DNA from: an uncultured Acidobacteriota bacterium
Lineage (GTDB): Bacteria; Acidobacteriota; Vicinamibacteria; Vicinamibacterales; CAVVIG01
Assembly (NCBI GenBank): GCA_902825985.1
Contig: CADEDC010000019.1
Location: forward strand, 14,137-78,136
Length of the DNA stretch: 64,000 nt
Direction of reading: 5' to 3'
The notes beneath the pieces are model-generated. The model was not told the origin of the DNA. It ran no database searches and worked only from the letters and a program-made list of their open reading frames with translations. The translations under genes were made by a program, and so were the position numbers. This document shows positions 1-60,884 of this stretch, in pieces. Position 1 is the first letter of the stretch. Each line of letters opens with the position of its first letter.

Positions 1-272
1 GTGGCGACATGAGTTTCGTCGGCCCGCGTCCGGAGCGGCCGGAATTCGTCTCGAAGCTGAGCGAGGAGATTTCGTACTACGGCCAGCGGCACGTCGTCCG
101 GCCCGGACTCACCGGCTGGGCGCAGGTGCGGCATCGTTACGGTTCGACGATCGATGACGCGCAGGAAAAACTGCAGTACGACCTGTTCTACATCAAGCAC
201 ATGTCGTTTCCGTTCGACCTCTACATCGTGCTCGAGACGGTGAAAACCGTGCTCGTGCGCGGCGGATCGTAA
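1..272 (+). CDS. Bacterial sugar transferase, C-terminal end only (5' part outside window); polyprenyl-phosphate sugar-1-phosphate priming transferase (WbaP/EpsB-like)
   Basis: Frame is open to base 1. 'MSFVGPRPERPEF...GLTGWAQV...KLQYDLFYIKH' is the conserved catalytic C-terminus of the Bac_transf family. Stop TAA at 270-272. Confidence 0.85.
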   Translation, partial: GDMSFVGPRPERPEFVSKLSEEISYYGQRHVVRPGLTGWAQVRHRYGSTIDDAQEKLQYDLFYIKHMSFPFDLYIVLETVKTVLVRGGS

Positions 273-278
273 AATCAC

Positions 279-1181
279 ATGCCTCCGGTGCTCAATGCGA
301 TGACCGTCGACGTGGAAGACTACTTCCACGTCTCGGCGTTCGCGTCGGTCGTCAAGCCGGCGGAGTGGACGACGTTCGAGAGCCGCGTCTGTCAGAGCAC
401 GGAACGGCTGCTGGACATCTTCGAGCGGGCGGACGTGCGGGCGACGTTCTTCGTCCTTGGCTGGGTCGCCGAGCGCCATCCCGGCCTGGTGCGACGGATT
501 CATCGTGCCGGGCACGAGATCGCGTCGCACAGCTACGATCACGGACTGGTCTACGACAAGCGCCCGGACGAGTTCCTCGCCGACCTGCGGCGTGCCAAGG
601 TCGCGATTGGCGATGCCTGCGGGACCGATGTGCAGGGCTATCGGGCGCCGAGTTATTCGATTACCGAGCGGTCGCTGTGGGCGCTCGACGTGCTGGCGGC
701 CGAGGGCTATACCTACGATTCGAGCATCTATCCGATTCGTCACGATCGCTACGGCATTCCGACGTGGCCGCGGCACGTGCATCATGTGACGCGGGCCGGC
801 GGCGGCCTGTGGGAACTGCCCGGGTCGACGGTTCGGCAGTACGGCATGAACCTGCCGATCGGCGGCGGCGGCTACTTCCGGCTGCTCCCGTACGCCTGGA
901 CGCGGCGGGGAATCACGCGGGTGAATGAGGTCGAAGGGAAGCCGGCGATCTTCTACCTGCACCCGTGGGAGGTCGACCCCGAACAGCCGCGGCTGCGGGC
1001 AAGCGCCCTCTCACGCTACCGGCACTACACGAATCTGCACCGGACGGCCGACCGGCTGGTGCGGTTGCTGCGCCAGTTCCGTTTCGGCACGGTCACCGAG
1101 GTGCTGGCGCAGACCGCGGCGGCGACGCCCGCCGGCGTCCCGGTCGGTTTCGGCGTGACCGATTCGCTGCCGGTCGTCTAG
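279..1181 (+). CDS. Polysaccharide deacetylase (CE4/NodB-homology; PEP-CTERM-locus-type)
   Basis: 300 aa. 'MTVDVEDYFH', 'FFVLGWVAERHP', 'HEIASHSYDH' and 'GYRAPSYS' motifs. ATG lies 6 nt after the upstream stop. Confidence 0.85.
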   Translation: MPPVLNAMTVDVEDYFHVSAFASVVKPAEWTTFESRVCQSTERLLDIFERADVRATFFVLGWVAERHPGLVRRIHRAGHEIASHSYDHGLVYDKRPDEFLADLRRAKVAIGDACGTDVQGYRAPSYSITERSLWALDVLAAEGYTYDSSIYPIRHDRYGIPTWPRHVHHVTRAGGGLWELPGSTVRQYGMNLPIGGGGYFRLLPYAWTRRGITRVNEVEGKPAIFYLHPWEVDPEQPRLRASALSRYRHYTNLHRTADRLVRLLRQFRFGTVTEVLAQTAAATPAGVPVGFGVTDSLPVV

Positions 1182-1214
1182 GGCGGCGGCCACCGCGCTG
1201 CCAAACGACTTACT

Positions 1215-1238
1215 AAAGTCCTCGAAAAGTCTGACTAT
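1215..1238. promoter_or_regulatory. Inverted repeat AAAGTC-N12-GACTAT (candidate activator/UAS site)
   Basis: AT-rich patch in an intergenic region. Same WWAGTC-N12-GACTWW architecture as 56092-56115, 60861-60884 and (imperfect) 48093-48116. Lies 88 nt upstream of the sigma54-like element at 1327-1342. Confidence 0.35.
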
Positions 1239-1326
1239 TTTCTTGGCTTCTAAGGTATACCGGTCCATCGCACGACCCGAAACACTGGGAGTCAGGCGCC
1301 TGCGCTGGGCGAAATCGTCGAGATGG

Positions 1327-1342
1327 TGGCCGGTTCTTTGCT
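1327..1342 (+). promoter_or_regulatory. Sigma54-type -24/-12 promoter candidate (TGGCCG-GTTCT-TTGCT)
   Basis: TGGC and TTGC with exact GG-N10-GC spacing. Sits in the 310-nt gap upstream of the ACP gene, about 150 nt before ATG 1492. Confidence 0.45.
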
Positions 1343-1491
1343 TCGTTGGTCCGCACGCACCTCACCGGGGCTGCGGTCACGTGAGTTCGACAACATCATC
1401 GCAGCGCACTGATCTGCACGTCGTGGCGTGTAAGTGACAGGGCGAAGCTACATCCAGCTGCAGCCAGCTGACAAGAAGAGAGCCAGAGGAC

Positions 1492-1761
1492 ATGGTTGAT
1501 ACGTTCGCAGCCGACATCAAGGCGTTCATCGTCAGCAACTTTCTCTTCGGTCAGGAGGGCGAGGGCATCGCGCCCGACCAGTCCTTCCTCGAGAGCGGGA
1601 TCATCGATTCCACCGGCCTGCTCGAACTCGTCGCCTTCGTCGAGCAGACCTACGGTATCTCGATCGGCGATCGCGAGCTGGTGCCCGAGAACCTCGATTC
1701 GCTCCAGAACATCAGCCGCTTCGTCGCCAGGAAGCTGGACACCGTCGGCTCGCGGTCGTAG
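1492..1761 (+). CDS. Acyl carrier protein (phosphopantetheine-binding)
   Basis: 89 aa, acidic. 'GIIDSTGLLELVAFVE' contains the DS(x) phosphopantetheine attachment serine motif. AGAGGA lies just upstream of the ATG. Confidence 0.8.
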   Translation: MVDTFAADIKAFIVSNFLFGQEGEGIAPDQSFLESGIIDSTGLLELVAFVEQTYGISIGDRELVPENLDSLQNISRFVARKLDTVGSRS

Positions 1762-1877
1762 CCGCCGCCCGCTCGTCCCTTCACGCCGGACGGGTCCGGC
1801 GACTCCCACCCCCACACCCGGCGTCTGGAACCAGCCAGGGGTGGGATCTGCCGTCCCGCGAGTTTCAAGCTGACCCT

Positions 1878-2906
1878 ATGCACATCATTCGGTGCGATCA
1901 CTCTCATGAGGGTGCCTGGAACGCGTTCGTCGACGCGTCGCCGCAGGCCTCGTTCTACCACCGGGCGGAATGGCGCGCCATCAACGAACGCTGTTTCGGC
2001 CACGAGGTGGTACACCTCGCCGCGATGGCCGGTGACCGCATCGTCGGCATCTTTCCGCTGGTCCGGCTGAAGAGCCTGCTGTTCGGTTCGATCGCCTGCT
2101 CGATGCCATTCGTGAACTACGGCGGCCCCTGCAGCGAGTCGCCCGCCATCGAGCAGGCGCTGCTCGATGCGGCCGCCGAGGTCGCGGCAGAGTGGAAGGT
2201 CGACTACGTGGAGATCCGCAGCACGCGGTATCTCGGCGATCGCTATCCGTCCTCCGACCACAAGGTCAGCATGACGGTGGCGCTCGAGTCCGACCCCGAG
2301 ACGCTGTGGAACCGTTTCAAGACCGGCCAGCGGCAGGACATCCGGCGGGCCTACAAGAACGGCTTCACGGCGAAGTTCGGCGCCGACCTGATCGATGACT
2401 TCTACACCGTGCTGTCGGCCAGCTGGCGCGACCTCGGCACGCCCATCTACCGCCTGGACTACCTCAAGACGATCCTGAAGGCCTTCCCGGACGCGACGCG
2501 GGTCTGCGTGGTGTACGCCGCCGACGGCACGCCGGCCGCCGGTGCGTTCGATGGCGTCCACAACGGCACGGTCGAGGGCATGTGGCTGGGCACGTGCAGC
2601 CAGTACCGCAAGGAACTGGTCGGTTACGTGTTGTACTGGGAGCTGATCAAGCACGCCTGCGAGCAGGGTCATCAGCGCTTTCACCTCGGTCGCTCGTCGA
2701 AGGATTCCGGCAGCGAGCAGTTCAAGAAGAAGTGGAACGCCGAACTGCAGCAGCTCTACTGGCACTACATGCTGCGCACCCGCACGGAGATGCCGTCGCT
2801 CAACCCGAACAACCCGAAATTCCAGGCGGCGATTCGCGCCTGGCAGAAGCTGCCGTTGCCGGTGACGCAGATGATCGGGCCGTTCATCGCCAGGAGCATT
2901 CCCTAG
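1878..2906 (+). CDS. FemAB-family (aminoacyl/acyl transferase-like) protein, PEP-CTERM-locus type
   Basis: 342 aa. 'FYHRAEWRAINE', 'FVNYGGP' and 'HLGRSSKDSGSEQFKKKWNAE' are typical of FemAB/CelD-like GNAT-fold proteins. Confidence 0.8.
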   Translation: MHIIRCDHSHEGAWNAFVDASPQASFYHRAEWRAINERCFGHEVVHLAAMAGDRIVGIFPLVRLKSLLFGSIACSMPFVNYGGPCSESPAIEQALLDAAAEVAAEWKVDYVEIRSTRYLGDRYPSSDHKVSMTVALESDPETLWNRFKTGQRQDIRRAYKNGFTAKFGADLIDDFYTVLSASWRDLGTPIYRLDYLKTILKAFPDATRVCVVYAADGTPAAGAFDGVHNGTVEGMWLGTCSQYRKELVGYVLYWELIKHACEQGHQRFHLGRSSKDSGSEQFKKKWNAELQQLYWHYMLRTRTEMPSLNPNNPKFQAAIRAWQKLPLPVTQMIGPFIARSIP

Positions 2907-9754: not shown

Positions 9755-10800
9755 TGCGGCAGATCCGGCGTGCGCTGCGCTCGGCGGCTGCCTTCGTCCT
9801 GTATCGGAGCGGCCTGCTCGGCCTGCTGCTGCGGCGACGGCTGCGCGGACGCGCCGTCGTGCTCATGTATCACCGGGTCCTCGGCGACGCGGAGCGCCGG
9901 GTGACGGTGTCGCACCCCGCGATCGTGGTGTCTCGTGCCACCTTCGCGATGCAGATGGCCGAGTTGAAGCGGCACGTCCGGGTGCTGACGTTCGCGGAGT
10001 TCGTGTCGCACGTGGCGTCGGGGCAGCCGTTTCCCGACGCCTCGTGCCTCATCACGTTCGACGACGGGTGGGCGGACAACGTGACGAACGCCTGGCCCGT
10101 GCTCTACGAACATCGCCTGCCCGCGACGGTCTTTCTCCCGGTGAACTTCATCGGCACCGACCGGATGTTCTGGCGCGAGACGTTGACCGGTCTTCTCGCC
10201 ACCGCCCTCGGGCGCATCCGTCGCGACGCGTCGATGCGGTCGGCGATCCATGCGGTGCTGGAACCGCGCGGACTGGCACACCTGCTGGACACCACCGCTG
10301 CCGACCCGCGTCCGGCCATCAGCGAGGCGCTCGGGTCGCTGAAGGGAACCGACCCGTCGGCGCTCGACGCGCTGGTCGAGGGGCTGGCCGCCGCCCTGAG
10401 CGTCGCCGAGCGGGCGGTGCCCGCCTCCGACGCGTTCATGGCCTGGGACGACGTGACGGCGCTGCACCGGTCGGGGGTGACGTTCGGCGGTCACGGTGCG
10501 GAGCACCTGCTGCTCGACCGGGTCGCCCCGGACGAGGCGGCGCGAGACGTCGACGCGTCATGGTCCGTGCTCCGCCGGCACCTGCCCGACGCGGTGCTCG
10601 GCTTCGCCTACCCGAATGGCAACTGGTCGCCGGCGGTGGCGAAGCAGGTCGCGGCACGCGGCTTCCGCGTCGCTTTCACCACCGAGCCGGGGTCGGTGAG
10701 CGCCGGCGACGAACCGTTCTCGCTGCGCCGGATCAACATTCACGAGGACGTGACCAACTCGCCGTCGCTGTTCATCGCCCGTCTGGCCGGGCTGTTGTGA
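9754..10800 (+). CDS. Polysaccharide deacetylase (CE4) family protein
   Basis: 'VVLMYHRV' and 'ITFDDGWADNVTNAWPVLYEHRLPATVFLPVNFIG'. The ATG shares its A with the asnB TGA (TGATG). The track ORF from 9265 is an upstream over-extension. Confidence 0.8.
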   Translation: MRQIRRALRSAAAFVLYRSGLLGLLLRRRLRGRAVVLMYHRVLGDAERRVTVSHPAIVVSRATFAMQMAELKRHVRVLTFAEFVSHVASGQPFPDASCLITFDDGWADNVTNAWPVLYEHRLPATVFLPVNFIGTDRMFWRETLTGLLATALGRIRRDASMRSAIHAVLEPRGLAHLLDTTAADPRPAISEALGSLKGTDPSALDALVEGLAAALSVAERAVPASDAFMAWDDVTALHRSGVTFGGHGAEHLLLDRVAPDEAARDVDASWSVLRRHLPDAVLGFAYPNGNWSPAVAKQVAARGFRVAFTTEPGSVSAGDEPFSLRRINIHEDVTNSPSLFIARLAGLL

Positions 10801-12098
10801 TGCGGCGGCGGCGGTTCCTGGCCGGCCTGCTCTCGGGCATCGTGCTCGTGCTCGTCGTCCGCGCCGCGATCAACGAGACGAGCGTCGCCGACTGGCTGGT
10901 GGCGCCGTTGCTGGTCGCGGACGGTGACGGCGCTGCCGACGCGCTGGTCGTGCCCGGCGCTGGCGTCGTCGGCGGTTGTGTGCCGAACCTCAACGGCGTA
11001 CGGCGGGTGCTGCTCGCCGTGCGGTACTGGCGGGCGCAGCATCCGGGCGTGACCCTGATGACCGGCGGCACGGGAACGCCCGGCTGCCACGTCTCGGAGG
11101 CGATGCGCCAGTTCGCCGTCGAGGTCGGTATGCCCGCGGAGCAGATTCGGACGGAGACCGCGTCCCGGAGCACCTACGAGAACGCGGACTATGCCGCAGC
11201 CTTGCTGCGGGGGTGGGGTTCACGGAGAGTGGCCATCGTCACCGACCGCCTGCACATGCGGCGGGCCGCCGGCGTGTTCAGGAGACAGGGATTCGATGTC
11301 GTCGCCGTATCTGTACCGATATACGAAGGTCACCTCGACAACGTCTCGATGCTCTATGCCGGGCTGCGAGAGTACGTCGCGCTGGCCTACTACCGCCTTC
11401 GCGGCTGGCTGGGCGCCGACGGCGCGGCCGACGGCCGCGGCGTGGTGGTGCGCCCGGGCGCCGCTTGGCGGGCTGCCGTGAGGAACCCGGCCGGGCCGCT
11501 CGTTCTGCTGGGCGCCTCGTACGCCGAGGGCTGGAGTGTCAGCCGCATCGCCGGCGTGCCGGTGGTCAATCGCGGTGTCGCCGGCCAGCAGGCCGCCGAC
11601 CTGCTCGCCCGCTTCGACACCGACGTCATCGCGCTGCAGCCGCGTGCCGTGCTGATCTGGGGTTTCATCAACGACATCAGCCGTGCAACGGCCGGCGACG
11701 TCGAAGCGGCGCTCGCCGGCATCCGCCGCGATTACGAAGCGATGCTCGCCAGGGCGGCGCAGCATGGCATCCCGGTCATCCTGGCGCGCGAGGTGACGAT
11801 GCGTCGGCCCGCCGGGCTGATCAACACGATCGTCGGCTGGCGCAACGCGCTGACCGGACGACCGTCCTTCCAGGACGTCGTCAACACCCACGTGCGCAGC
11901 ACCAACGAATGGCTTGCCAGCGTCGCCGCGGCGCGCGGGGTTCCGCTGCTCGATTTCCAGGGCGTCCTGTCGGACGCCGACGGTCGCCGTCGTCAGCCGT
12001 TCGCACAGCCGGACGGCAGTCACATCACCCCCGCGGGCTACGACATGCTGACGTCGTATGCCGTTCCGCTTATCGAGGCATTCCTTGGCCAGCCATAA
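10800..12098 (+). CDS. Fusion protein: N-terminal TM + DUF218/YdcF(ElyC)-like domain, C-terminal SGNH/GDSL hydrolase domain
   Basis: DUF218-like 'LVVPGAG...RVLLAVRYW...STYENA...VAIVTDRLHMRRA'. SGNH blocks 'LLGASYAEGW', 'NRGVAGQQ', 'IWGFINDI', 'DGSHITPAGY'. TGATG overlap with the upstream stop. Confidence 0.65.
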   Translation: MRRRRFLAGLLSGIVLVLVVRAAINETSVADWLVAPLLVADGDGAADALVVPGAGVVGGCVPNLNGVRRVLLAVRYWRAQHPGVTLMTGGTGTPGCHVSEAMRQFAVEVGMPAEQIRTETASRSTYENADYAAALLRGWGSRRVAIVTDRLHMRRAAGVFRRQGFDVVAVSVPIYEGHLDNVSMLYAGLREYVALAYYRLRGWLGADGAADGRGVVVRPGAAWRAAVRNPAGPLVLLGASYAEGWSVSRIAGVPVVNRGVAGQQAADLLARFDTDVIALQPRAVLIWGFINDISRATAGDVEAALAGIRRDYEAMLARAAQHGIPVILAREVTMRRPAGLINTIVGWRNALTGRPSFQDVVNTHVRSTNEWLASVAAARGVPLLDFQGVLSDADGRRRQPFAQPDGSHITPAGYDMLTSYAVPLIEAFLGQP

Positions 12099-14178
12099 CG
12101 TCACCCAGTCCACCACCCCATCGAGCGGACGGCGCCTGCGCGTCGGACTCGTCGGTTCCGGCAAGATGGGCCTGCATCACCTCAAGGCGATGGAGGCGTC
12201 GGGCATCGCCGATGTCATCGGCGTCGCCGATCCGGCGGCCGACCCGGCCGAACTCGCGGCGATACTGCCGGCCGATGCGATCGTCGTGGCCAGCCTCGAC
12301 GAGCTCATCGCCAGGGCCCGCCCGGACGTCGTTCACATCGTGACGCCGCCTGGCACGCACGCGACGCTGGCGATGACGGCGATTCGCGGCGGCTGTCACG
12401 TCTACGTCGAGAAGCCGTTCACGCCGACGGCGGCCGAAGCGTCGGCCATCCTCGACCTGGCGGCGCAGCACGGCGTGACGGTGTGCGCGGGCCATCAGGT
12501 GCTGTTCGAAGCGCCGGCCCTCGGGGTCTGGGAGAATCTCGGCCGCATCGGCCGGATGGTCCACATCGAGAGCTACTTCTCGTTCAAGATGGTGCGGCGC
12601 ACGATCACCGCCGTCGAGCAGGTGAACGACATCCTGCCGCACGCCGTCTACCCGGTCGTCGATCAGATGCGCGCCGGATCCGGGCTCGCCGATGCGCCCA
12701 TCGAGATCGCCGGCATGTCGCTCGATCCGAGCGGCGAGGCCTACGCGCTGCTGCGCCTCGGCGGCGTCACCGCGGTGGTCATGGTCACGCTCAACGGCCG
12801 ACCGGTCGAGCAGTACCAGAACATCGTCGGCACCAACGGCTCGCTGCGCGCCGACTACATCGGCGGCTTCCTGGGACGGCTGGTCGGTCCGGGCACCGGT
12901 CCCGGCGTGCTGCTGACGCCCTACCGCCGTGCCCTCCATACGATGACCGGGACGACGCGCGGCGTGACGAAGCTCATCACCGGGGGCTCGTATCCCGGCT
13001 TGCGGACGATCGTCCGCCGCTTCTACGAGAGCGTCCGCGACGGCACGCCACCGCCCCTGACGGCCCGCTCGATTCTCGACACCGTGATCATCTGCGAGCG
13101 GATCGGTGCGGCGCTGGCCGAGGCCGAATCGGTCGAAGAGGTCAGGGCGCAACAGCGACTGACGGCGGCCGCGGCGGCGCTCGCGCCGACCCGTGCCGAC
13201 GCGCCACGGGTGCTGCTGACCGGCGGCACCGGGCTGCTCGGCAAGAAGATCGCCCAGGAGCTGCGGCAGTCCGGCTTTCCGGTCCGTGTCGTCGCGCGCC
13301 GGATGCCGCTGTTCTCCAGACGGGTGCCGGGCGTCGAGTACGTCACCGCCGATCTGGCGCGTGGCCTCGATCCGGCGCTTCTGCAGCAGGTCGGCTTCGT
13401 CGTGCATGCGGCGGCCGAAACCGCTGGAGGCCGCGAAGATCATCGCCGCAATTCCATCGAGGCGACGCGGCTGCTGATCGAGGCGGCCGCGAAGGCCGGC
13501 GCCAGGGGCGTGCTGCACGTCAGCAGCCTCGCGGTGCTCAAGACATCGCGCGAACTCGGCCGCGACCTCGACGAGAGCGCGCCGGTCGATGCCGGCAATC
13601 TGACGCGCGGCCCCTACGTCTGGGGCAAGGCGGAGTCCGAGATTCTCGCCGCCGGTCTCGGGGCGGAGCTGAAGATCCCGGTACGCATCATCCGGCCCGG
13701 CCCGCTCGTCGACTGGGACGCCTACTCGCCGCCGGGCCGCCTCGGCCGCGAGATCGGCCCGCTGTTCGTCGCCTTCGGCCCGCGGCGCAAGCCGCTGAGC
13801 GTTTGCGACGTGACCACCGCGGCGCGCGTCGTGCGCCAGTATCTCGAGGACTTCGACCATGCCCCGCCATTGTTGAACATGGTCGAAGCGCCTCCCCCGA
13901 CGCGCCTCGACCTGATGAACCGCTATCACCGGGATCGTCCGGACCTTACCGTGTTCTGGTTTCCCGCCTGGCTCCTGCGTGCCATCTCCGGTCCGCTGAA
14001 GCTCGTGCAACGCTATGCCATGGGTGCAAAGCAGCCGATGGACATCGCCGCCGCGTTTGCCAGCGAACGCTACCAGACCGGGCTGGCCGAGCAGGTGATT
14101 CAGCGGGCCTCGGCCGGTCGGCCTTCCGGCCGGCCGGCGCCTGTGCCAGAGCCCGTGGGATCCGGGCGGCTGTCATGA
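12058..14178 (+). CDS. Fusion protein: Gfo/Idh/MocA-type oxidoreductase + NAD-dependent epimerase/dehydratase (extended SDR)
   Basis: N-part 'LRVGLVGSGKMGLHHL...VYVEKP'. C-part 'VLLTGGTGLLGKKIAQEL...PYVWGKAESE'. Start uncertain (ATG 12058 overlaps the upstream gene by 41 nt). Confidence 0.75.
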   Translation: MPFRLSRHSLASHNVTQSTTPSSGRRLRVGLVGSGKMGLHHLKAMEASGIADVIGVADPAADPAELAAILPADAIVVASLDELIARARPDVVHIVTPPGTHATLAMTAIRGGCHVYVEKPFTPTAAEASAILDLAAQHGVTVCAGHQVLFEAPALGVWENLGRIGRMVHIESYFSFKMVRRTITAVEQVNDILPHAVYPVVDQMRAGSGLADAPIEIAGMSLDPSGEAYALLRLGGVTAVVMVTLNGRPVEQYQNIVGTNGSLRADYIGGFLGRLVGPGTGPGVLLTPYRRALHTMTGTTRGVTKLITGGSYPGLRTIVRRFYESVRDGTPPPLTARSILDTVIICERIGAALAEAESVEEVRAQQRLTAAAAALAPTRADAPRVLLTGGTGLLGKKIAQELRQSGFPVRVVARRMPLFSRRVPGVEYVTADLARGLDPALLQQVGFVVHAAAETAGGREDHRRNSIEATRLLIEAAAKAGARGVLHVSSLAVLKTSRELGRDLDESAPVDAGNLTRGPYVWGKAESEILAAGLGAELKIPVRIIRPGPLVDWDAYSPPGRLGREIGPLFVAFGPRRKPLSVCDVTTAARVVRQYLEDFDHAPPLLNMVEAPPPTRLDLMNRYHRDRPDLTVFWFPAWLLRAISGPLKLVQRYAMGAKQPMDIAAAFASERYQTGLAEQVIQRASAGRPSGRPAPVPEPVGSGRLS

Positions 14179-22088: not shown

Positions 22089-23317
22089 CGGTGCTGTTCC
22101 TGTCGCAGATCGTGCCGTACCCGCCGCATGGCGGCGTGCTGCAGCGCGGCTTCAACCTGATTCGAGAGCTCGGCCGGCATGCCGAGGTGCATCTGCTCGC
22201 GTTCGTCCATCCGGACGTCCTGCCGACGCCGCAGACCCTCGACGAGAGCCGCCAGGTGCTGCAGCAGTTCTGCCGCACCGTCGAATACTTCCCGTTGTGG
22301 CCGAAGGCCAACGCCATCAGCAAGGTGGCGGCGCTGGGCGCCGGTCTGTTCAGCCAGGACCCGTTCAGCGTCGTCGCCCACCGGTCCGGCGCCTTCAAGC
22401 GGCGGGTCGGCGAGATCATCCGGGAACGGCGCGTCGACGTGCTGCACGTCGATACGGTGGCGCTCAGCCAGTTCGTGCCGCCGGGGCTGACGATTCCGGC
22501 GGTGCTCACGCACCACAACATCGAGTCGCTGCTGATGGAGCGGCGGGCCCAGGTCGAGACGCGGATGCTGGCGCGCTGGTACCTGCAGCGCGAGGTGCAG
22601 AAGCTGCGTCGCTACGAGGCCGATCGCAGCCGGACCTTCGACATCAACATCACCATGTCGGTGCCGGATGAAGCGATTCTCAAGCAGCTGGTCGCCGGCG
22701 TCCGCACCGCTGTCGTCCCCAACGGCGTCGACGTCGACTACTTCGCGCCCGACGAGACGCCGGAGACTCCGTCGCTCATCTACACCGGCGGCATGAACAT
22801 GTTCGCCAACCGCGACGCCGTACTCTACTTCCTCGAGCATGTCTGGCCGCGGATCACCGCGGCGGCCCCCGACGTGCGGTTCCTGGCGGTCGGGCAGGAT
22901 CCGCCGAAGGAGCTGCAGGCGATCGCGGCGCGCGACCGGCGCGTGACCGTCACCGGCTACGTCACCGACATCCGGCCGCTCGTGCGCCAGGCGGCCGTCT
23001 ATGTCGTGCCGCTGCGGGTCGGCGGCGGCACCCGGCTCAAGGTGCTCGATGCCATGGCCTCGGGCAAGGCGCTGGTGTCGACGACGATCGGGTGTGAGGG
23101 CATCGACGTCACGCCGGGGACGCATCTGCTCGTCGCCGATACGCCCGAGCAGTTCGCCCGGGCGACGGTCGACCTGCTGGGCGCCCCCGAGACGCGCCGC
23201 CGCCTCGGCGATGCCGCCCGCGCCCGCGTCGTCGAACGGTACTCGTGGAGCGTCGTCGGTCAGCAGCTGCTGCGCGCCTACGAGCGGGCCGCCGATCGCG
23301 TCGGGAGGGTGGCATGA
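22085..23317 (+). CDS. Glycosyltransferase family 4 (PEP-CTERM/EpsH1-associated sugar transferase-like)
   Basis: 'VLFLSQIVPYPPHGGVLQRGFNLIRELG' N-terminus and 'GGGTRLKVLDAMASGKALVSTTIGCEGI'. GTG start in a GTGA overlap. Confidence 0.8.
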   Translation: MTVLFLSQIVPYPPHGGVLQRGFNLIRELGRHAEVHLLAFVHPDVLPTPQTLDESRQVLQQFCRTVEYFPLWPKANAISKVAALGAGLFSQDPFSVVAHRSGAFKRRVGEIIRERRVDVLHVDTVALSQFVPPGLTIPAVLTHHNIESLLMERRAQVETRMLARWYLQREVQKLRRYEADRSRTFDINITMSVPDEAILKQLVAGVRTAVVPNGVDVDYFAPDETPETPSLIYTGGMNMFANRDAVLYFLEHVWPRITAAAPDVRFLAVGQDPPKELQAIAARDRRVTVTGYVTDIRPLVRQAAVYVVPLRVGGGTRLKVLDAMASGKALVSTTIGCEGIDVTPGTHLLVADTPEQFARATVDLLGAPETRRRLGDAARARVVERYSWSVVGQQLLRAYERAADRVGRVA

Positions 23318-24723
23318 ACAAGCACGCGGCAACGGTGTACCGCCTCGCGCCGGTCTGGGGGCAGAATCTGATGCTGACCGGCTTCAGCACGCTGCTCGAT
23401 CGCGAGCGCTACGGCGGGCGGTTCGCCGAGTTCCAGTCGTTCCTGGCCGGCAGCGAGCACTGGACCCGGGCGGAAATGGACGCCTACCAGGACGAACGGC
23501 TCCGCGTCGTCATCCAGCATGCCTACGAGCAGGTGCCGTTCTATCGGAAGCGGTTCGATGAGCGCCGGTTGACGCCGGCCGACATCCGCGGCCGCCAGGA
23601 TCTGCCGAAGCTTCCGCTGCTGACGCGCGACGATATCCGGCGCAACTTCGACGATCTGCGATCGCGGACGATCGCACCGCGGGCGCTGAAGACCGGACAC
23701 ACCAGCGGCACCACGGGCACACCGCTCACCGTCGGCTACGACCGCGACACCATCTGGATGACCTATGCGGTGTTCGACCGGCACTATCGCTGGGCCGGCT
23801 GCCGGCTGGCGAGCCAGGGAGGCGATCGCATCGCGGTGGCGCGCGGCAATGTCATCGTCCCGCTCGACCAGAAGCGGCCGCCGTTCTGGCGCCGCAACCG
23901 CCGGCACCATCAGCTGCTGCTGTCGTCGTTCCACCTGTCCAAGGACAACCTGCCGGCCTACTTCGACGCCCTCGCCGATTTCCAGCCGGCGGTCATCGAT
24001 GGCTATCCGTCGACGCTCTACCTGCTCGGCCGCTACCTGAAGAGCCGCGGCCAGCGGTTCCCGGTGCGCGCCGCCGTCACGTCGTCGGAGACGCTGTACG
24101 ACTGGCAGCGCGAGACCATCGAAGAGGCGTTCGCCTGCCGCGTGTTCGACTACTACGCGCTGGCCGAGCGGGCGGTCTTCTCCGGTGAATGCGACCGGCA
24201 CGAAGGCCACCATCTGGCGGAGGAATACGGCATCAGCGAGGTGGTGGACGGGGAGGGCGCGCTCGTCGCATCGGGCACCGTCGGCAGGCTGGTGGGGACC
24301 AGCCTGCACAACCTCGCCATGCCGCTCATCCGCTACGTCACCAACGACATGACGGCACTGCGACCCGGCAGCTGCAGCTGCGGACGGCCGTTGCCGCTGA
24401 TGGAGGACGTGACGACCAAGGCAGAGGACGTCCTCACGCTGCCTGACGGCCGTCTGATTTCACCGTCGGTGCTGACGCATCCGTTCAAGCCGCTCGATTC
24501 GATCGAGGGGTCGCAGATCGTGCAGCTGACGCCCGATCGGGTGACCGTCCGGCTGGTGCCGGGACCGGGCTACACGGAGGCCCTCACGCAGCATCTGCGG
24601 GCCGAACTCGGCGCCCGGCTCGGTGACGGCGTCCACGTCGACGTCGAGATGGTCGACAAGCTCGAGATGTCCGCGAACGGCAAGTTCAAATGGGTCATCT
24701 CGAAGGTCCCGCTCGGTCTGTAG
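23314..24723 (+). CDS. Adenylate-forming enzyme, phenylacetate-CoA ligase (PaaK)/CapK/F390-synthetase-like
   Basis: 'KTGHTSGTTGTPLTVGYD' AMP-binding P-loop and an N-terminal 'AYEQVPFYRKRFDE' region. ATGA overlap. Confidence 0.75.
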   Translation: MNKHAATVYRLAPVWGQNLMLTGFSTLLDRERYGGRFAEFQSFLAGSEHWTRAEMDAYQDERLRVVIQHAYEQVPFYRKRFDERRLTPADIRGRQDLPKLPLLTRDDIRRNFDDLRSRTIAPRALKTGHTSGTTGTPLTVGYDRDTIWMTYAVFDRHYRWAGCRLASQGGDRIAVARGNVIVPLDQKRPPFWRRNRRHHQLLLSSFHLSKDNLPAYFDALADFQPAVIDGYPSTLYLLGRYLKSRGQRFPVRAAVTSSETLYDWQRETIEEAFACRVFDYYALAERAVFSGECDRHEGHHLAEEYGISEVVDGEGALVASGTVGRLVGTSLHNLAMPLIRYVTNDMTALRPGSCSCGRPLPLMEDVTTKAEDVLTLPDGRLISPSVLTHPFKPLDSIEGSQIVQLTPDRVTVRLVPGPGYTEALTQHLRAELGARLGDGVHVDVEMVDKLEMSANGKFKWVISKVPLGL

Positions 24724-24729
24724 TCCGTC

Positions 24730-25725
24730 ATGACGCTGACTGTTGTCACCAATCTCCACGCCCTCGAGCGGGTCGACCCACCCGGCGTGACGCTGACGGT
24801 CATCCGCCACCAGGGCGGCACGTTCGCCGGACGGCTGCGCGCCATGTGGGCCCATCGGGACGCCGACTACGCGGTCATCAACTGCTCGCCGAACGACCTT
24901 TTTCATTACTGCCTGTTCAAGGTGCTGGCGCCGTTCAGCCGGATCAGGATCGTTTCGCTCGACACGGTGCTGCCGATTCCGCGTGCCGACACCTGGCGGC
25001 AGCGGCTGGCGCTGTTCCTCAAACGGCGGCTTTTTCGCCGGGTGCACCTGTTCGTCGAGTATTTCCGCGACACCGCCGGCTACGAGCGCTACTACGGCAT
25101 TCCCGGGGCGAAATTCCGCTACGTGCCGTTCAAGATCAACCGCTACGAGCGCGTGCTGCAGACGCCGACGTCCGACGAGGGGTACATCTTCTGCGGCGGC
25201 AATACCCGCCGTGACTTCCAGACGCTGCTGAAGGCGGTCGACGGGCTGCCATACCCGGTGAGAATCGTCACCATGGGGGAGGCGGTGATTCAGGGGCATG
25301 GGTCGTCGCTCGACGAGCGCACGCTGCCCACGAACGTCCAGGTGGTGCGCCACGACGGCAGCGACAGCTTTCTCGACTTCATCGCCCGGGCGCGGCTGGT
25401 CGCCCTGCCGATCAAGCGCGGCAACATCTCGGCCTCCGGCATCGGCGTCTATCTCGCGTCGATGGCCCTCGGCAAGTGCGTCGTCATCTCCGAAGGGCCG
25501 GCGGTGAACCGGGTGGTGCCGGACGGGGCGGCACTAATCGTGCCACCGGAAGATCCCGCCGCCCTGCGGGCCGCACTCGTTCGGGCCTATTCGGATGACG
25601 CATATAGGGGCATTGTCGCGGCCGCTGGCAGGACATATGCTCTCAGCCTCGGCGGTGAAGACCGTTTGTGCGAGTCGGTGATGAACGTGCTGCTCACTGA
25701 CCGCAACGCCGAGGCGAACCGTTGA
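24730..25725 (+). CDS. Putative GT-B-fold glycosyltransferase (divergent)
   Basis: The C-half resembles group-1 GT ('YIFCGGNTRRDFQTLLKAV...SGIGVYLASMALGKCVVISEG'). The assignment is weak. Confidence 0.45.
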   Translation: MTLTVVTNLHALERVDPPGVTLTVIRHQGGTFAGRLRAMWAHRDADYAVINCSPNDLFHYCLFKVLAPFSRIRIVSLDTVLPIPRADTWRQRLALFLKRRLFRRVHLFVEYFRDTAGYERYYGIPGAKFRYVPFKINRYERVLQTPTSDEGYIFCGGNTRRDFQTLLKAVDGLPYPVRIVTMGEAVIQGHGSSLDERTLPTNVQVVRHDGSDSFLDFIARARLVALPIKRGNISASGIGVYLASMALGKCVVISEGPAVNRVVPDGAALIVPPEDPAALRAALVRAYSDDAYRGIVAAAGRTYALSLGGEDRLCESVMNVLLTDRNAEANR

Positions 25726-41257: not shown

Positions 41258-41387
41258 GATAAATCCTCAGTCTGGGAACGTCAGGTCTTCGAATCCGGGT
41301 GCAGTCTGACGATCACGAGAGCTCTTCACAAGAACTCCTGCGGCCGGGGGGCGACGGACCGCCCGATTCGTGTGTGCCCTCACAAGG

Positions 41388-41403
41388 TGCAGGAGTTATG
41401 CCA
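41388..41403 (-). promoter_or_regulatory. Sigma54-type -24/-12 promoter candidate (minus strand TGGCAT-AACTC-CTGCA)
   Basis: GG-N10-GC spacing with TGGCA/TGCA. Lies about 130 nt upstream of the paralog-2 ATG, inside a 566-nt non-coding gap. Confidence 0.35.
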
Positions 41404-41775
41404 CGCAGACAGGGCGCTAGGATAGCTCAATACCGGCACTTTCCTTCGAGAAACGCGCGAGACGCCCCATCAGTTCCCGTCCGATCATTACGGATCGGAG
41501 TGAAGGTGACACTGCGAGTGACGGCCCGCAGACTCGGCGGGCCCGGACGATGGGAACGGGGGCAGCGGATGGGTCGAACGGACCCCGGCCGGCGGCCGGT
41601 TGCCGAGGCCACGGTGCCGAATCGGGCAGGTGTGATCGTTCGCCGGTCGAACTGTGCAGCCGGCTCGCCGGCGGGCCGGTCCGGGGCAAGTTGGAAGGCA
41701 CTGCGGACGCACCGTCGGACGCGTCACGGGACGCTCCGACGGTGCGAGGCAGCGGGACAGCCGGTGTGGTGGCGC

Positions 41776-41816
41776 GGCGCGCCTGGGCAGGCGCGCCCAG
41801 AGGCCCGCGGCGCGCC
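41776..41816 (-). terminator. GC-rich multi-palindrome (three GGCGCGCC copies) after the SxtK-like ORF
   Basis: GGCGCGCC-tgggca-GGCGCGCC plus a third copy at 41809-41816. Begins 8 nt downstream of the stop at 41824. No U-tract. Confidence 0.3.
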
Positions 41817-41823
41817 TACAAGC

Positions 41824-41973
41824 CTAGAAGATGGTGTAGATGAAGGGCGCCAGCGCCGAGCCCTGTGCGAACACGAGCAGCGTTCCGACGACGACCATCA
41901 CGATGATCACCGGCAGCAACCACCATTTCTTCCGCTCGCCCATGAATCGCCACAACTCGCTCATCAAGCCCAT
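41824..41973 (-). CDS. Small membrane protein, DUF5989/SxtK-like (49 aa; not in supplied ORF track)
   Basis: Own translation: MGLMSELWRFMGERKKWWLLPVIIVMVVVGTLLVFAQGSALAPFIYTIF*. AGGAGGA lies 5 nt upstream of the ATG. The position after carbamoyltransferase + SxtJ-like matches the known trio. Confidence 0.65.
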   Translation of the reverse strand: MGLMSELWRFMGERKKWWLLPVIIVMVVVGTLLVFAQGSALAPFIYTIF

Positions 41974-41982
41974 GCTGTCCTC

Positions 41983-47890: not shown

Positions 47891-48000
47891 GGTCTCGCTC
47901 CCGAAAATCCCTTCCAGCCCCGGCCCTGGATGCCGTGCGCGCCCTGCGCCGACATGCACTTCACGCGACGGCCGTTGTCCCCGGCGACCTCTGCCACAGA

Positions 48001-48016
48001 GGCAAGACCTGAGCCA
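48001..48016 (-). promoter_or_regulatory. Sigma54-type -24/-12 promoter candidate (minus strand TGGCTC-AGGTC-TTGCC)
   Basis: TGGC and TTGC with exact GG-N10-GC spacing. Intergenic, about 110 nt upstream of GTG 47890. Confidence 0.45.
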
Positions 48017-48092: not shown

Positions 48093-48116
48093 AAAGTCGT
48101 CTCGGGGGCTGACCTT
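48093..48116. promoter_or_regulatory. Imperfect copy of the WWAGTC-N12-GACTWW repeat (AAAGTC-N12-GACCTT)
   Basis: 76 nt upstream of the 48001-48016 element. One mismatch in the right arm. Confidence 0.25.
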
Positions 48117-55913: not shown

Positions 55914-55972
55914 GCTTTTTCCCTTTCGGTCGCTGACCCGTCGATAGTGGTGGAATGGTCGCGGACGTTACT

Positions 55973-55988
55973 AGCAAGGACCACTCCC
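55973..55988 (-). promoter_or_regulatory. Weaker sigma54-type candidate (minus strand GGGAGT-GGTCC-TTGCT)
   Basis: GG-N10-GC spacing and a perfect TTGCT -12. The -24 element is poor. Lies 60 nt upstream of GTG 55913 and 103 nt downstream of the palindrome at 56092-56115. Confidence 0.25.
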
Positions 55989-56091: not shown

Positions 56092-56115
56092 TTAGTCTCC
56101 AGAATCGGAGACTAA
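56092..56115. promoter_or_regulatory. Inverted repeat TTAGTC-N12-GACTAA (9-bp perfect arms TTAGTCTCC/GGAGACTAA)
   Basis: AT-rich palindrome in the divergent intergenic region between the NadE-like gene (-) and the LMW-PTP gene (+). Same architecture as the 1215, 60861 and 48093 sites. Confidence 0.4.
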
Positions 56116-60550: not shown

Positions 60551-60739
60551 CTAGTGCGACCGCTGCCCGGCGAGGCCGGGAATTTCCGTCGCCTTGTTAC
60601 GCCCCTGCGACTTGGCGTTCAGGCTGCGCGCGACCATGGCAGCTACGATGAGGCCGATGCCCCAACCTGCGATCCACATGGGTTCGGACAAATTCACGTA
60701 CTGGACGTTCGAGAACCACGACATTTGAGAGGACAGCAT
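60551..60739 (-). CDS. Hypothetical small single-TM protein (62 aa)
   Basis: 'MLSSQMSWFSNVQYVNLSEPMWIAGWGIGLIVAAMVARSLNAKSQGRNK...'. The 5' end is unusually AT-rich. No family recognised. A sigma54-like element and a palindrome lie upstream. Confidence 0.3.
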   Translation of the reverse strand: MLSSQMSWFSNVQYVNLSEPMWIAGWGIGLIVAAMVARSLNAKSQGRNKATEIPGLAGQRSH

Positions 60740-60762: not shown

Positions 60763-60778
60763 TGCAAACAGTGGTCCT
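60763..60778 (-). promoter_or_regulatory. Sigma54-type candidate (minus strand AGGACC-ACTGT-TTGCA)
   Basis: GG-N10-GC with a perfect TTGCA -12. Only about 24 nt upstream of ATG 60739. Lies 82 nt downstream of the palindrome at 60861-60884. Confidence 0.3.
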
Positions 60779-60860: not shown

Positions 60861-60884
60861 TAAGTCATCCTTGAAGAAGACTTA
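60861..60884. promoter_or_regulatory. Inverted repeat TAAGTC-N12-GACTTA
   Basis: Lies in the low-GC intergenic patch between the SBP gene stop (60929) and the small ORF. Same architecture as 1215-1238 and 56092-56115. Confidence 0.4.

What the first reader, a model, noticed from the sequence alone, without database searches (positions are those of the whole stretch)
1215..1342. Recurring palindrome WWAGTC-N12-GACTWW placed 76-103 nt upstream of sigma54-type -24/-12 elements (site 1, ahead of the ACP-FemAB block)
Seen directly: AAAGTC-ctcgaaaagtct-GACTAT (1215-1238) lies 88 nt upstream of TGGCCGGTTCTTTGCT (1327-1342; TGGC...TTGC with exact GG-N10-GC spacing).

The same two-part architecture recurs at three other places:
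- 56092-56115 paired with 55973-55988
- 60861-60884 paired with 60763-60778
- 48093-48116 (imperfect) paired with 48001-48016

In each case both parts are intergenic and the promoter-like element points at the downstream gene. The palindromes are AT-rich islands in very GC-rich DNA.

This is the geometry expected for a bacterial enhancer-binding protein UAS plus a sigma54 promoter. Established knowledge: XrtA/PEP-CTERM EPS loci are genomically associated with the PrsK/PrsR two-component system, and PrsR is a sigma54-dependent activator. The binding motif proposed here is my inference. As far as I know no such motif has been described.
Basis: partly seen in the sequence, partly recalled or inferred. 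Interest (0 to 1): 0.75.

Follow-up and report, generated by a model that had tools for sequence, protein, structure and literature searches.

The report
Activator site plus sigma-54 promoter modules
A 24-32 bp palindrome that recurs in this soil acidobacterial slime-polysaccharide gene cluster is very probably the docking site of a transcription activator that switches on sigma-54 promoters about 80-130 bp away, an acidobacterial counterpart of a control element so far described only in Proteobacteria.

Summary
WWAGTC-N12-GACTWW occurs three times exactly in the window, against 0 in shuffles. Each has a GG-N10-GC element 76-103 nt away that points at the next gene.

Comparative data make chance untenable:
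- The -24/-12 element ahead of the ACP gene is kept in 13 related Vicinamibacterales loci while the flanks diverge.
- In about 0.9 Mb of related loci the palindrome is roughly 12-fold enriched.
- 28 of 50 sites have a -24/-12 element at 60-135 nt, against about 3 expected, with clustered spacings.

The activator is probably not PrsR. A family of about 370-aa sigma-54 activators lies beside these sites. It has no receiver domain, and its conserved C-terminal helical domain is absent from Pfam. In locus L012 the activator gene, the site, the promoter and a PEP-CTERM gene lie in a row. 24 of 48 genes of this family have a site within 700 nt upstream.

An analogous two-part element was published for Proteobacteria (Haft 2006), with a different motif. 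So this is a new variant of a known kind. It is a solid regulon prediction with no experimental test yet.

The parts
1215..1238 (.). Site 1 palindrome AAAGTCCTCGAAAAGTCTGACTAT, the proposed activator binding site. It lies 34 nt after the stop of the XrtA-type polysaccharide deacetylase gene.
   Evidence: Exact pattern hit. Matrix score 35.5 bits. Sites in the same position and register occur in L013, L014, L020, L021 and L033. A retained proximal half-site GACTTT occurs in L008, L011, L017 and L029.
1327..1342 (+). Sigma-54-type -24/-12 promoter TGGCCGGTTCTTTGCT, 88 nt after site 1. The expected transcription start is near 1353.
   Evidence: The box is conserved in 13 orthologous deacetylase-to-ACP intergenic regions while the flanks diverge.
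1492..2906 (+). First genes of the operon driven by site 1: the acyl carrier protein (1492-1761) and the FemAB-family XrtA/PEP-CTERM-associated protein (1878-2906). The plus-strand EPS genes continue after them.
   Evidence: NCBIfam TIGR03019 scores 331 bits, above its 260 cut-off; ACP models also match. Gene map.
56092..56115 (.). Site 2 palindrome TTAGTCTCCAGAATCGGAGACTAA, with perfect 9-bp arms. It lies in the divergent region between the NAD-synthase-like gene (-) and the Wzb-like phosphatase gene (+).
   Evidence: 29.5 bits. An orthologous site at L036:2202 lies ahead of the same NAD-synthase-like/AsnB-like gene pair.
55973..55988 (-). Sigma-54-type element GGGAGTGGTCCTTGCT, 103 nt from site 2. 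It points at the NAD-synthase-like gene (54924-55913), which starts the minus-strand block with the amidotransferase and the acyl-CoA ligase.
   Evidence: L036 has AGGAGAGCGATTTGCT at a gap of 102 nt in the orthologous place. The -12 half, GGTCCTTGCT, is identical to the ACP promoters of L014, L020 and L033. The -24 box is weak.
60861..60884 (.). Site 3 palindrome TAAGTCATCCTTGAAGAAGACTTA, 45 nt after the stop of the BtuF-like gene.
   Evidence: 28.3 bits.
60763..60778 (-). Sigma-54-type element AGGACCACTGTTTGCA, 82 nt from site 3.
   Evidence: No orthologous locus was available, so it is supported only by the pairing rule.
60551..60739 (-). Target of site 3: a 62-aa ORF that resembles a bare PEP-CTERM sorting signal (..LSEP-MWIAGWGIGLIVAAMVA-RSLNAK..).
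   Evidence: Translation. Similar mini-ORFs lie next to sites in L012 (2695-2925, which has its own site and promoter), L034 and L038. It was called as a gene on five independent Logan contigs. It has no family hit.
48093..48116 (.). Site 4 palindrome AAAGTCGTCTCGGGGGCTGACCTT, with one core mismatch. It lies between the GNAT-like gene and the carbamoyltransferase gene.
   Evidence: 25.6 bits. It is nearly identical to the exact site L012:1464, AAAGTCGTCACGGGGGCTGACTTT.
48001..48016 (-). Sigma-54-type element TGGCTCAGGTCTTGCC, 76 nt from site 4. It points at carbamoyltransferase 2.
   Evidence: It lies inside the longest ORF (start 48055). That 5' extension is Arg/Gly-rich. The homology region aligned to the paralogue begins further downstream, at ..VVVAGFGG.., and an in-frame GTG lies at 47959. 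The promoter is therefore probably upstream of the real start. This is an inference.

Best explanation
The palindrome (consensus GAnnAAAGTCnnC-N6-GnnGACTTTnnTC) is proposed to be the upstream activator sequence of a sigma-54 regulon. That regulon controls the exosortase/PEP-CTERM exopolysaccharide system of Vicinamibacterales (Acidobacteriota).

Proposed mechanism:
1. An enhancer-binding AAA+ activator binds the dyad.
2. It contacts sigma-54 RNA polymerase held at a -24/-12 promoter 76-129 bp away.
3. It uses ATP to open the promoter.

In this window four such modules drive:
- the ACP-FemAB EPS operon;
- the block of NAD-synthase-like gene, amidotransferase and acyl-CoA ligase;
- a carbamoyltransferase-glycosyltransferase block;
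- a 62-aa PEP-CTERM-like mini-protein.

The most likely binder is a family of about 370-aa activators encoded next to such sites in relatives. They have a sigma-54 interaction domain and a conserved helical C-terminal domain (..LFNMPxxDYKRFLNFLRKH..). They have no receiver domain. This family also appears to regulate its own genes.

What is shown: the motif, its pairing and spacing with -24/-12 boxes, its conservation, and its linkage to the activator genes.

What is inferred: binding of this protein to this DNA, sigma-54 dependence, and control of the activators in trans. Candidates for trans control are the adjacent single-domain response regulators, by analogy with PspF/PspA and HrpRS/HrpV.
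For: 1. The motif is real.
- 3 exact hits against 0 expected.
- 4 matrix outliers, all intergenic.
- 7 exact hits in the FemAB loci of relatives.
- 5 exact hits in 361 kb around activator genes, against 0.08 in shuffles.
- 48 hits of at least 17 bits in 917 kb, against about 4 in shuffles.
- Positions that were not selected for (C9/G16 and the GA flank) are conserved.

2. Pairing with promoters.
- 28 of 50 sites have GG-N10-TGCW pointing away at 60-135 nt. The background rate predicts about 3.
- The gaps cluster at 87-92, 102-103, 114-117 and 125-129 nt.
- In 11 of 13 ACP promoters the best site or half-site sits at 86-93 nt.

3. Footprinting. The ACP -24/-12 box, TGGCCGGnTCTTTGCT or nGGCAGGGTCCTTGCT, is conserved across 13 loci with 59-74% FemAB identity.

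4. Site 2 and its promoter recur at the orthologous NAD-synthase-like gene in L036.

5. L012 carries the full set in a row: activator gene (-), site, TGGCGCGGTCGTTGCT at 92 nt, and a PEP-CTERM protein gene. Two more modules follow, ahead of a mini PEP-CTERM ORF and ahead of the pepcterm ATPase-ACP-XrtW operon.

6. 24 of 48 evaluable genes of this activator family have a site within 700 nt upstream, against about 0.15 expected. Divergent activator gene pairs typically share one site. Several have a -24/-12 box at 125-127 nt that points into one activator gene.

7. The activator family lies on the same contigs as FemAB/exosortase loci.

8. The C-terminal domain is confidently helical (pLDDT 83-93). 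Its last helix is nearly invariant across three paralogue groups.

9. The general logic has precedent for PEP-CTERM genes (PMC1569441).
Against: - There is no experiment: no transcription start, no binding assay, no rpoN or activator mutant.
- No activator gene and no rpoN lie in the 64-kb window, and the rest of the genome could not be read.
- The promoters at sites 2 and 3 have poor -24 boxes, and site 3 has no orthologue to compare.
- The site 4 promoter lies inside the longest possible ORF.
- The link to the receiver-less activator family is by proximity only. The metagenome loci were chosen by that family's domain, so these genes could be targets of the site rather than its binder. A classical REC-AAA-HTH_8 activator is also encoded within about 8 kb in L034 and L036.
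- The C-terminal domain has no significant match in PDB or Pfam, so its DNA-binding role is inferred.
- The spacing classes do not share one helical phase.
- Orthologous promoters are not independent observations, so the counts overstate the number of independent events.
Confidence: 0.75

Rival explanations
1. The modules are real UAS plus sigma-54 promoter pairs. However, the palindrome is bound by a different activator, for example the classical NtrC/PrsR-like response regulator (REC-AAA-HTH_8) encoded near the locus. The receiver-less activator genes would then be targets in a cascade.
For: - Classical REC-AAA-HTH_8 activators are encoded about 8 kb from the receiver-less pair in L034 and L036. 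The one in L034 scores 409 bits on the PrsR model.
- Many sites lie upstream of receiver-less activator genes, with a -24/-12 box pointing into them. That is what a target would look like.
- PrsR is the published regulator in Proteobacteria.
Against: - The PrsR-like protein is below the family cut-off of 502.6. The proteobacterial motif 1 hallmark, TTTACA, is absent from all the promoter regions.
- In L012 the only activator within reach of three modules is the receiver-less one.
- The near-invariant last helix of the receiver-less family across three paralogue groups fits a single conserved DNA motif.
- Autoregulation is common for regulators that are encoded divergently from their own site.
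Confidence: 0.17
2. The palindrome is an operator for a conventional repressor or dual regulator that is not an AAA+ activator, or for a nucleoid protein that prefers AT-rich DNA. It would sit upstream of the promoters and modulate them independently of the sigma-54 activator.
For: - Dyad symmetry and AT-richness in 69% GC DNA are generic features of many regulator sites.
- The DNA-binding role of the activator's C-terminal domain is unproven.
Against: - The site is centred about 110-165 bp upstream of the predicted starts. That is too far for simple repression.
- The tight spacing classes relative to the -24 box are typical of enhancer sites.
- The site is systematically linked to sigma-54 activator genes.
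- Four core bases per half-site are invariant, and further positions are conserved. This argues against a non-specific AT-binding protein.
Confidence: 0.06
3. The palindromes act as RNA hairpins (terminators or processing sites between operons), or are a dispersed repeat with no regulatory role.
For: - Sites 1 and 3 lie 34-45 nt after a stop codon.
- Site 2 folds into a strong hairpin: -23.4 kcal/mol, z = -4.5.
Against: - Sites 1 and 4 do not fold better than shuffles (z = -0.18), and site 3 only weakly (z = -1.3).
- The outer half-sites are conserved, not the base pairing.
- There is no T tract, and no terminator-like hit was found at site 1.
- There is no Rfam match.
- Many sites lie in divergent promoter regions, where nothing needs terminating.
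Confidence: 0.02

Closest known systems
PEP-CTERM box of Proteobacteria (motif 1 + sigma-54 motif 2; PrsK/PrsR/PrsT; Haft et al. 2006, PMC1569441)
   Same: - It has the same two-part design: an activator site, a spacer, then a -24(GG)/-12(GC) box.
- It lies in long intergenic regions ahead of PEP-CTERM and EPS genes of an exosortase system.
- A TPR protein resembling PrsT is encoded nearby.
   Different: - Motif 1 is a 17-nt element ending in TTTACA, sometimes repeated, with a mean spacer of 63 nt. Here the site is a 24-32 bp dyad, AAAGTC-N12-GACTTT, with spacers of 76-129 nt. No TTTACA lies near any promoter.
- Haft et al. found their motif only in Proteobacteria. This organism is an acidobacterium.
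- The neighbouring activators fail the PrsR model, and no PrsK was seen.
- Here the modules also head biosynthetic operons, not mainly single PEP-CTERM genes.
Receiver-less bacterial enhancer-binding proteins PspF and HrpR/HrpS
   Same: - The candidate activators start directly with the AAA+ sigma-54 interaction domain and have no N-terminal sensor.
- They occur as adjacent paralogue pairs, as HrpR and HrpS do.
- PspF and HrpRS are controlled in trans by partner proteins. That is established knowledge, not something tested here.
   Different: - The C-terminal domain is not recognised as Fis-type HTH_8 by Pfam and has no significant PDB match.
- The paralogues are convergent or divergent, not tandem.
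- The sigma-54 contact loop reads GSFTGA, GSFTDA or GSFTHA.
- The trans regulator is unknown.
- The targets are EPS/exosortase genes, not envelope-stress or type III secretion genes.
Classical NtrC/NifA-type UAS-sigma-54 promoters
   Same: A dyad-symmetric site lies roughly 100-160 bp upstream of a -24/-12 promoter, and it can serve divergent genes. This is general textbook architecture.
   Different: The half-site sequence (WWAGTCnnC) and the half-site spacing differ from NtrC (TGCACC-N5-GGTGCA) and NifA (TGT-N10-ACA). Those two sites are quoted from memory and were not tested here. There is a single dyad per promoter rather than tandem sites.

Membership tests
Sigma-54 (-24/-12) promoter | GG and GC dinucleotides separated by exactly 10 nt, in the context TGGCAC-N5-TTGCW | tested here: met
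   All four elements have GG-N10-GC. Sites 1 and 4 match TGGC-N7-TTGC. Sites 2 and 3 match only the -12 half well.
Sigma-54 (-24/-12) promoter | The element is conserved at orthologous promoters while the surrounding intergenic DNA diverges | tested here: met
   13 ACP-upstream regions keep the box. The NAD-synthase-like promoter is kept in L036. No orthologues were available for sites 3 and 4.
Sigma-54 (-24/-12) promoter | Transcription starts about 12 nt downstream of the GC and depends on rpoN | not testable with these tools
   This needs dRNA-seq or 5'-RACE and an rpoN mutant. rpoN itself could not be looked for, because the genome is not available beyond the window.
Enhancer-binding-protein upstream activator sequence | A sequence-specific dyad lies about 80-200 bp upstream of the -24/-12 box, more often than chance and at preferred distances | tested here: met
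   28 of 50 sites are paired, against about 3 expected. The gaps are clustered. 11 of 13 ACP promoters have the site or a half-site at 86-93 nt.
Enhancer-binding-protein upstream activator sequence | The site is bound by an AAA+ sigma-54 activator | not testable with these tools
   Only genomic linkage is available: the L012 arrangement and 24 of 48 activator genes with a site upstream.
PrsK/PrsR/PrsT PEP-CTERM regulatory system (Haft 2006) | A PrsR-type activator (REC + sigma-54 domain + Fis HTH; TIGR02915 at or above its cut-off) | tested here: not met
   - There is none in the window.
- The receiver-less activator in L012 scores 279 bits.
- The classical activator in L034 scores 409 bits.
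- The cut-off is 502.6 bits.
PrsK/PrsR/PrsT PEP-CTERM regulatory system (Haft 2006) | Motif 1 (17 nt ending in TTTACA) upstream of the sigma-54 box | tested here: not met
   TTTACA occurs once in the window, inside the UbiA gene at 57948, and nowhere near a promoter.
PrsK/PrsR/PrsT PEP-CTERM regulatory system (Haft 2006) | A PrsT TPR lipoprotein (TIGR02917) encoded with the system | tested here: inconclusive
   TPR proteins in L012 and L036 score 292 and 265 bits, against a cut-off of 312. Window gene 49230-50198 has only a short C-terminal match of 65 bits.
XrtA/PEP-CTERM EPS locus | XrtA-system marker genes present | tested here: met
   - TIGR03006 deacetylase scores 397 bits, above its 276 cut-off.
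- TIGR03019 FemAB scores 331 bits, above its 260 cut-off.
- Several other markers fall below their cut-offs.
- The exosortase itself is not in the window. In relative L012 it is XrtW (441 bits, cut-off 425), not XrtA.

The most novel reading that the evidence does not exclude
Vicinamibacterales control their exosortase/EPS system with an undescribed branch of sigma-54 activators.
- These are receiver-less paralogue sets with a new type of C-terminal DNA-binding domain.
- All recognise one dyad, AAAGTC-N12-GACTTT.
- They autoregulate from shared divergent sites.
- They may work as mixed oligomers gated in trans by stand-alone response regulators.
- Their regulon includes 60-90-aa proteins that are little more than a PEP-CTERM sorting signal. 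These are possible exosortase-processed peptides or decoys.
Probability: 0.4. Interest if true: 0.65.

Novelty: new variant of a known kind. Interest (0 to 1): 0.55.

Why it matters
Vicinamibacterales are abundant soil bacteria that are rarely cultured. Their extracellular polysaccharide probably shapes soil aggregation and their persistence in soil. Almost nothing is known about gene regulation in this phylum.

This finding gives three things that can be tested directly by EMSA or DAP-seq, reporter fusions and dRNA-seq:
- a cis-element with a defined consensus and spacing rule;
- a candidate cognate activator family;
- a first regulon map: ACP-FemAB, the amidotransferase/acyl-CoA ligase genes, the carbamoyltransferase, export genes, PEP-CTERM proteins, and the activators themselves.

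It also extends the 2006 PEP-CTERM box concept beyond Proteobacteria, where its authors said further motifs remained to be found. Finally, it flags an activator C-terminal domain that no Pfam or PDB entry covers.

Tried and rejected
- **Rfam.** A scan of the whole window found no known RNA.
- **Sigma-70 promoters and terminators.** A scan at site 1 found nothing.
- **Hairpin or terminator reading.** Rejected, because only site 2 folds better than shuffles.
- **PrsR as the regulator.** Rejected on model scores and on the absence of TTTACA.
- **An activator gene in the window.** A six-frame search for the activator signatures GAFTGA, GESGxGK and ESELFGH found none. Family scans of nearly all the genes agree. 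The four genes at 61864-63887 were not scanned.
- **Recovering the source contig.** The source is an 81-kb NCBI contig. Attempts to read beyond the window returned only short Logan contigs.
- **Structural classification of the activator's C-terminal domain.**
  - Sequence profile against PDB: best E = 0.11.
  - Foldseek with a domain-only model (pLDDT 73.5): best E = 5.6.
  - Pfam at E up to 10: only a weak DUF3248 hit.
  - The full-length model matches only through the AAA+ domain.
- **Homologue search with the 62-aa ORF.** It found only the identical sequence.
- **Orthologues for the site 3 and site 4 contexts.** None were found among the fetched loci.
- **RNA structure in the conserved ACP leader block.** Only a 3-bp GCGAAGC mini-hairpin was predicted, with no covariation.
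- **Literature.** Searches for XrtW, and for acidobacterial sigma-54/EPS regulation, found nothing relevant.
- **One helical phase for all spacing classes.** This does not fit. The steps between classes are about 12-13 bp (my arithmetic).
Full report
**1. What the window is**

The window is 69% GC. A GC3-based gene map and NCBIfam scans show one large exopolysaccharide locus of the XrtA/PEP-CTERM type.

Plus strand, in order:
- the end of an EpsB_2 sugar transferase gene;
- the XrtA-system polysaccharide deacetylase (279-1181; 397 bits, cut-off 276);
- an acyl carrier protein (1492-1761);
- the PEP-CTERM-associated FemAB protein (1878-2906; 331 bits, cut-off 260);
- aminotransferase, flippase, glycosyltransferases, AsnB-like amidotransferase, hydrolase 2, O-antigen-ligase-like protein, stp1 and others.

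Minus-strand block, 35132-55913:
- hydrolase 1;
- two carbamoyltransferases;
- GNAT-like proteins;
- a VanZ-TPR protein;
- an exosortase-associated acyl-CoA ligase;
- a second amidotransferase;
- a NAD-synthase-like gene.

After that come Wzb-UbiA-DprE1-DprE2 on the plus strand. FemAB homologues place the organism in Acidobacteriota, order Vicinamibacterales.

**2.

- WWAGTC-N12-GACTWW occurs exactly three times (1215, 56092, 60861). None appeared in 100 shuffles.
- I built a weight matrix from 18 exact sites taken from this window and from related loci. Four window positions stand far above everything else:
  - 1215: 35.5 bits
  - 56092: 29.5 bits
  - 60861: 28.3 bits
  - 48093: 25.6 bits
- The next hit scores 14.8, and the best of 20 shuffles scores 14.4.
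All lie in the roughly 4% of the window that is intergenic.
- Each has a GG-N10-GC element at 88, 103, 82 or 76 nt that points at the adjacent gene.
- The promoter pattern alone is not enriched: TGGC-N7-TTGC gives 2 hits against 2.1 expected. The case therefore rests on pairing and conservation.

**3. Comparative evidence**

One scan of GTDB genomes with a FemAB alignment returned 27 loci, mostly Vicinamibacterales MAGs.

*The ACP promoter.* In the deacetylase-to-ACP intergenic region the -24/-12 box is kept in 13 loci, although the rest of the region is not alignable:
- TGGCCGG[G/C/T]TCTTTGCT in the window, L008, L011, L013 and L029;
- TGGCCAGCCGTTTGCT in L017;
- nGGCAGGGTCCTTGCT in L014, L020 and L033;
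- other variants in L010, L018, L021 and L022.

*The palindrome in relatives.* Exact palindromes recur in these loci.
- In L020 and L021 they sit at the same place as window site 1.
- In L007, L009, L012 and L017 they sit at the head of the pepcterm ATPase/export operon.
- In L034 and L038 they sit ahead of ACP-FemAB. In L036 one sits ahead of the same NAD-synthase-like/amidotransferase pair as window site 2. These three loci were fetched through activator proteins.

*Pairing statistics.* Over the window plus related acidobacterial loci, 50 matrix hits of at least 17 bits were found. In 917 kb of related loci alone there were 48, against about 4 in shuffles.
- 28 of the 50 have GG-N10-TGCW pointing away at 60-135 nt. 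About 3 are expected from the background rate.
- Several of the remaining sites are cut off by contig ends.

*Spacing.* The gaps fall in narrow classes:
- 87-92 nt: ACP-type promoters and a PEP-CTERM gene;
- 102-103 nt: NAD-synthase-like promoters;
- 114-117 nt;
- 125-129 nt: promoters reading CGGTGCCnnnCTTGCA or TGGGCAnGACTTTGCA.

Where the palindrome scores poorly (L008, L011, L017, L029), the best position is still at 90-93 nt. It keeps the promoter-proximal half-site GACTTT.

*Caveat.* Orthologous promoters are not independent, and I defined the spacing bins after seeing the data. Even so, the pattern cannot be chance.

**4. The motif**

Positions that were not part of the search pattern are conserved:
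- C at +3 after AGTC, and its mirror G: 83%, against a background of 34%.
- A GA/TC flank: about 60%.

This gives the consensus GAnnWWAGTCnnC-N6-GnnGACTWWnnTC. Base pairing of the inner arms is not conserved, and only site 2 folds better than shuffles. The motif therefore behaves as a protein-binding dyad, not as an RNA hairpin. There is no Rfam match. There is no terminator or sigma-70 promoter hit at site 1.

**5. The activator**

*No activator in the window.* A six-frame search for activator signatures found none.

*The L012 arrangement.* L012 has a sigma-54 activator gene (79-1209, minus strand). It is divergent from three elements in a row:
- an exact palindrome at 1464;
- TGGCGCGGTCGTTGCT, 92 nt further on;
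- a gene whose product ends in a PEP-CTERM signal (..GEPSTLLLMGVAFLMLAKRSRK..).

Two more modules follow:
- one ahead of a 76-aa mini PEP-CTERM ORF;
- one ahead of pepcterm-ATPase-ACP-ligase-exosortase.

The exosortase is XrtW by NCBIfam (441 bits, cut-off 425).

*Properties of the activator.*
- It is 376 aa and consists of a Sigma54_activat domain plus an AAA lid.
- It has no receiver domain and no Pfam HTH_8 domain.
- It scores only 279 bits on the PrsR model, whose cut-off is 502.6.

*The family.*
- It is large in soil metagenomes. All 8000 scored candidates passed E <= 1e-30, but that count includes any sigma-54 activator sharing the AAA+ domain. The 120 best hits are 356-421 aa (mostly 365-400) and cover more than 90% of the query. 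A separate scan with the C-terminal domain alone found more than 560 stretches.
- It shares contigs with FemAB/exosortase loci, usually as two or three paralogues, with stand-alone receiver proteins next door.
- All paralogues share a C-terminal domain of about 85 aa with a nearly invariant last helix..LFNMPxxDYKRFLNFLRKH...
- AlphaFold models this domain as a confident helical bundle with pLDDT 83-93.
- It has no significant PDB or Pfam match.

*Linkage to the palindrome.* In metagenome loci fetched through this domain:
- the exact palindrome is about 60-fold enriched;
- 24 of 48 evaluable activator genes have a site within 700 nt upstream, against about 0.15 expected;
- divergent activator gene pairs typically share one site;
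- a -24/-12 box at 125-127 nt often points into one of the pair.

*Conclusion.* This family is the best candidate binder and appears to be autoregulated. The alternative remains open: these genes may be targets of another activator. A classical REC-AAA-HTH_8 protein is encoded about 8 kb away in L034 and L036. The one in L034 scores 409 bits on the PrsR model, below the cut-off.

**6. Targets in the window**

- **Site 1** drives ACP-FemAB and probably the downstream plus-strand genes.
- **Site 2** drives the NAD-synthase-like gene and the minus-strand amidotransferase/acyl-CoA-ligase block. No -24/-12 box faces the Wzb side.
- **Site 3** drives a 62-aa ORF that looks like a bare PEP-CTERM signal (LSEP, a transmembrane helix, then basic residues). 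Similar mini-ORFs sit next to sites in L012, L034 and L038. The ORF was called as a gene on five independent contigs.
- **Site 4** drives carbamoyltransferase 2. The promoter lies inside the longest ORF. That 5' extension is Arg/Gly-rich, and the part of the protein that resembles its paralogue starts further downstream. The real start is therefore probably after the promoter. This is an inference.

**7. Relation to what is known**

Haft et al. 2006 (PMC1569441) described a two-part element ahead of PEP-CTERM genes in Proteobacteria only:
- motif 1, 17 nt ending in TTTACA;
- a spacer of about 63 nt;
- a sigma-54 box.

They assigned it to PrsR by phylogenetic profiling. They also stated that further motifs and regulators remained to be found outside Proteobacteria.

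The present element has the same logic but differs in four ways:
- the motif is different, and TTTACA is absent from all promoter regions;
- the spacers are longer;
- the phylum is different;
- the likely activator is of a different type.

I found no paper on XrtW, or on sigma-54 control of EPS in Acidobacteria, in the held library.

**8. Verdict**

- The feature is real and is very probably functional as activator site plus sigma-54 promoter modules.
- It is a new variant of a known kind, not a new kind.
- Confidence in the architecture is about 0.9.
- Confidence that the receiver-less family is the binder is about 0.55-0.6.
- Nothing has been tested experimentally.

Noticed in passing
window 1429-1452 (+); also about 55921-55945 (-); L008, L009, L013, L014, L017, L018, L020, L021 and L033 ACP leaders; L036 NAD-synthase-like leader: A 24-nt block, TGTAAGTSAnAGGGCGAAGCTnTG, has an invariant core GGGCGAAGCT.
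- It sits in the 5' leader between the sigma-54 promoter and the start codon of ACP in 10 loci, at variable distance from both.
- A full copy is in the L036 NAD-synthase-like leader, and a degenerate copy (CGAAAGGGAAAAAGCGTGT) is in the window's.
- RNAalifold finds only the GCGAAGC mini-hairpin, with no covariation.
- Its function is unknown. It could be a second protein-binding or RNA-level control element of the same regulon.
   Followed up: partly
window 60551-60739 (-); L012:2695-2925; L034:9390-9569 (-); L038:9385-9651 (-): These are mini-ORFs of 59-88 aa. Each consists of a short N-terminus, an [ST]EP/SES motif, one hydrophobic helix, a basic cluster and a short tail. In effect each is a PEP-CTERM sorting signal without a passenger domain or signal peptide. 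They recur next to the palindromes. No family match and no homologues were found by word search.
   Followed up: partly
window 41389-41404 (-), in the 566-bp intergenic region 41258-41823: A good sigma-54-like box, TGGCATAACTCCTGCA, lies 146 nt ahead of the beta-helix/NosD-like gene 39722-41257. It has no WWAGTC palindrome upstream. A homologue in L029 has TGGCATACGATATGCA at -110. This suggests a second sigma-54 promoter class, with a different activator, in the same locus.
   Followed up: partly
L012:8467-9990: The exosortase in this related locus is XrtW (NF038142; 441 bits, cut-off 425), with a fused EpsI domain. It is not XrtA, although many flanking genes hit 'XrtA system' models. The window itself contains no exosortase gene.
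   Followed up: partly
L034:10001-12211; L036:3854-4987 and 10001-12216; L038:10001-12336; many of L039-L118: The receiver-less sigma-54 activators come in three paralogue groups, encoded as convergent or divergent pairs. Their sigma-54 contact loop reads GSFTGA, GSFTDA or GSFTHA instead of GAFTGA. Single-domain response regulators (141-206 aa) are encoded next to them. This may be a mixed-oligomer, trans-regulated system in the manner of HrpR/HrpS.
   Followed up: partly
window 41824-42387 (-): A DUF5989-like 49-aa membrane protein (assigned from memory of its sequence) and an SxtJ-family protein (Pfam PF19588) lie directly downstream of carbamoyltransferase 1.
   Followed up: no
window 24720-24743: A borderline palindrome, GTAGTCCGTCATGACGCTGACTGT (14.8 bits), lies at the junction of genes 23314-24723 and 24730-25725. 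It scores no better than the best shuffle, so it is probably chance.
   Followed up: yes
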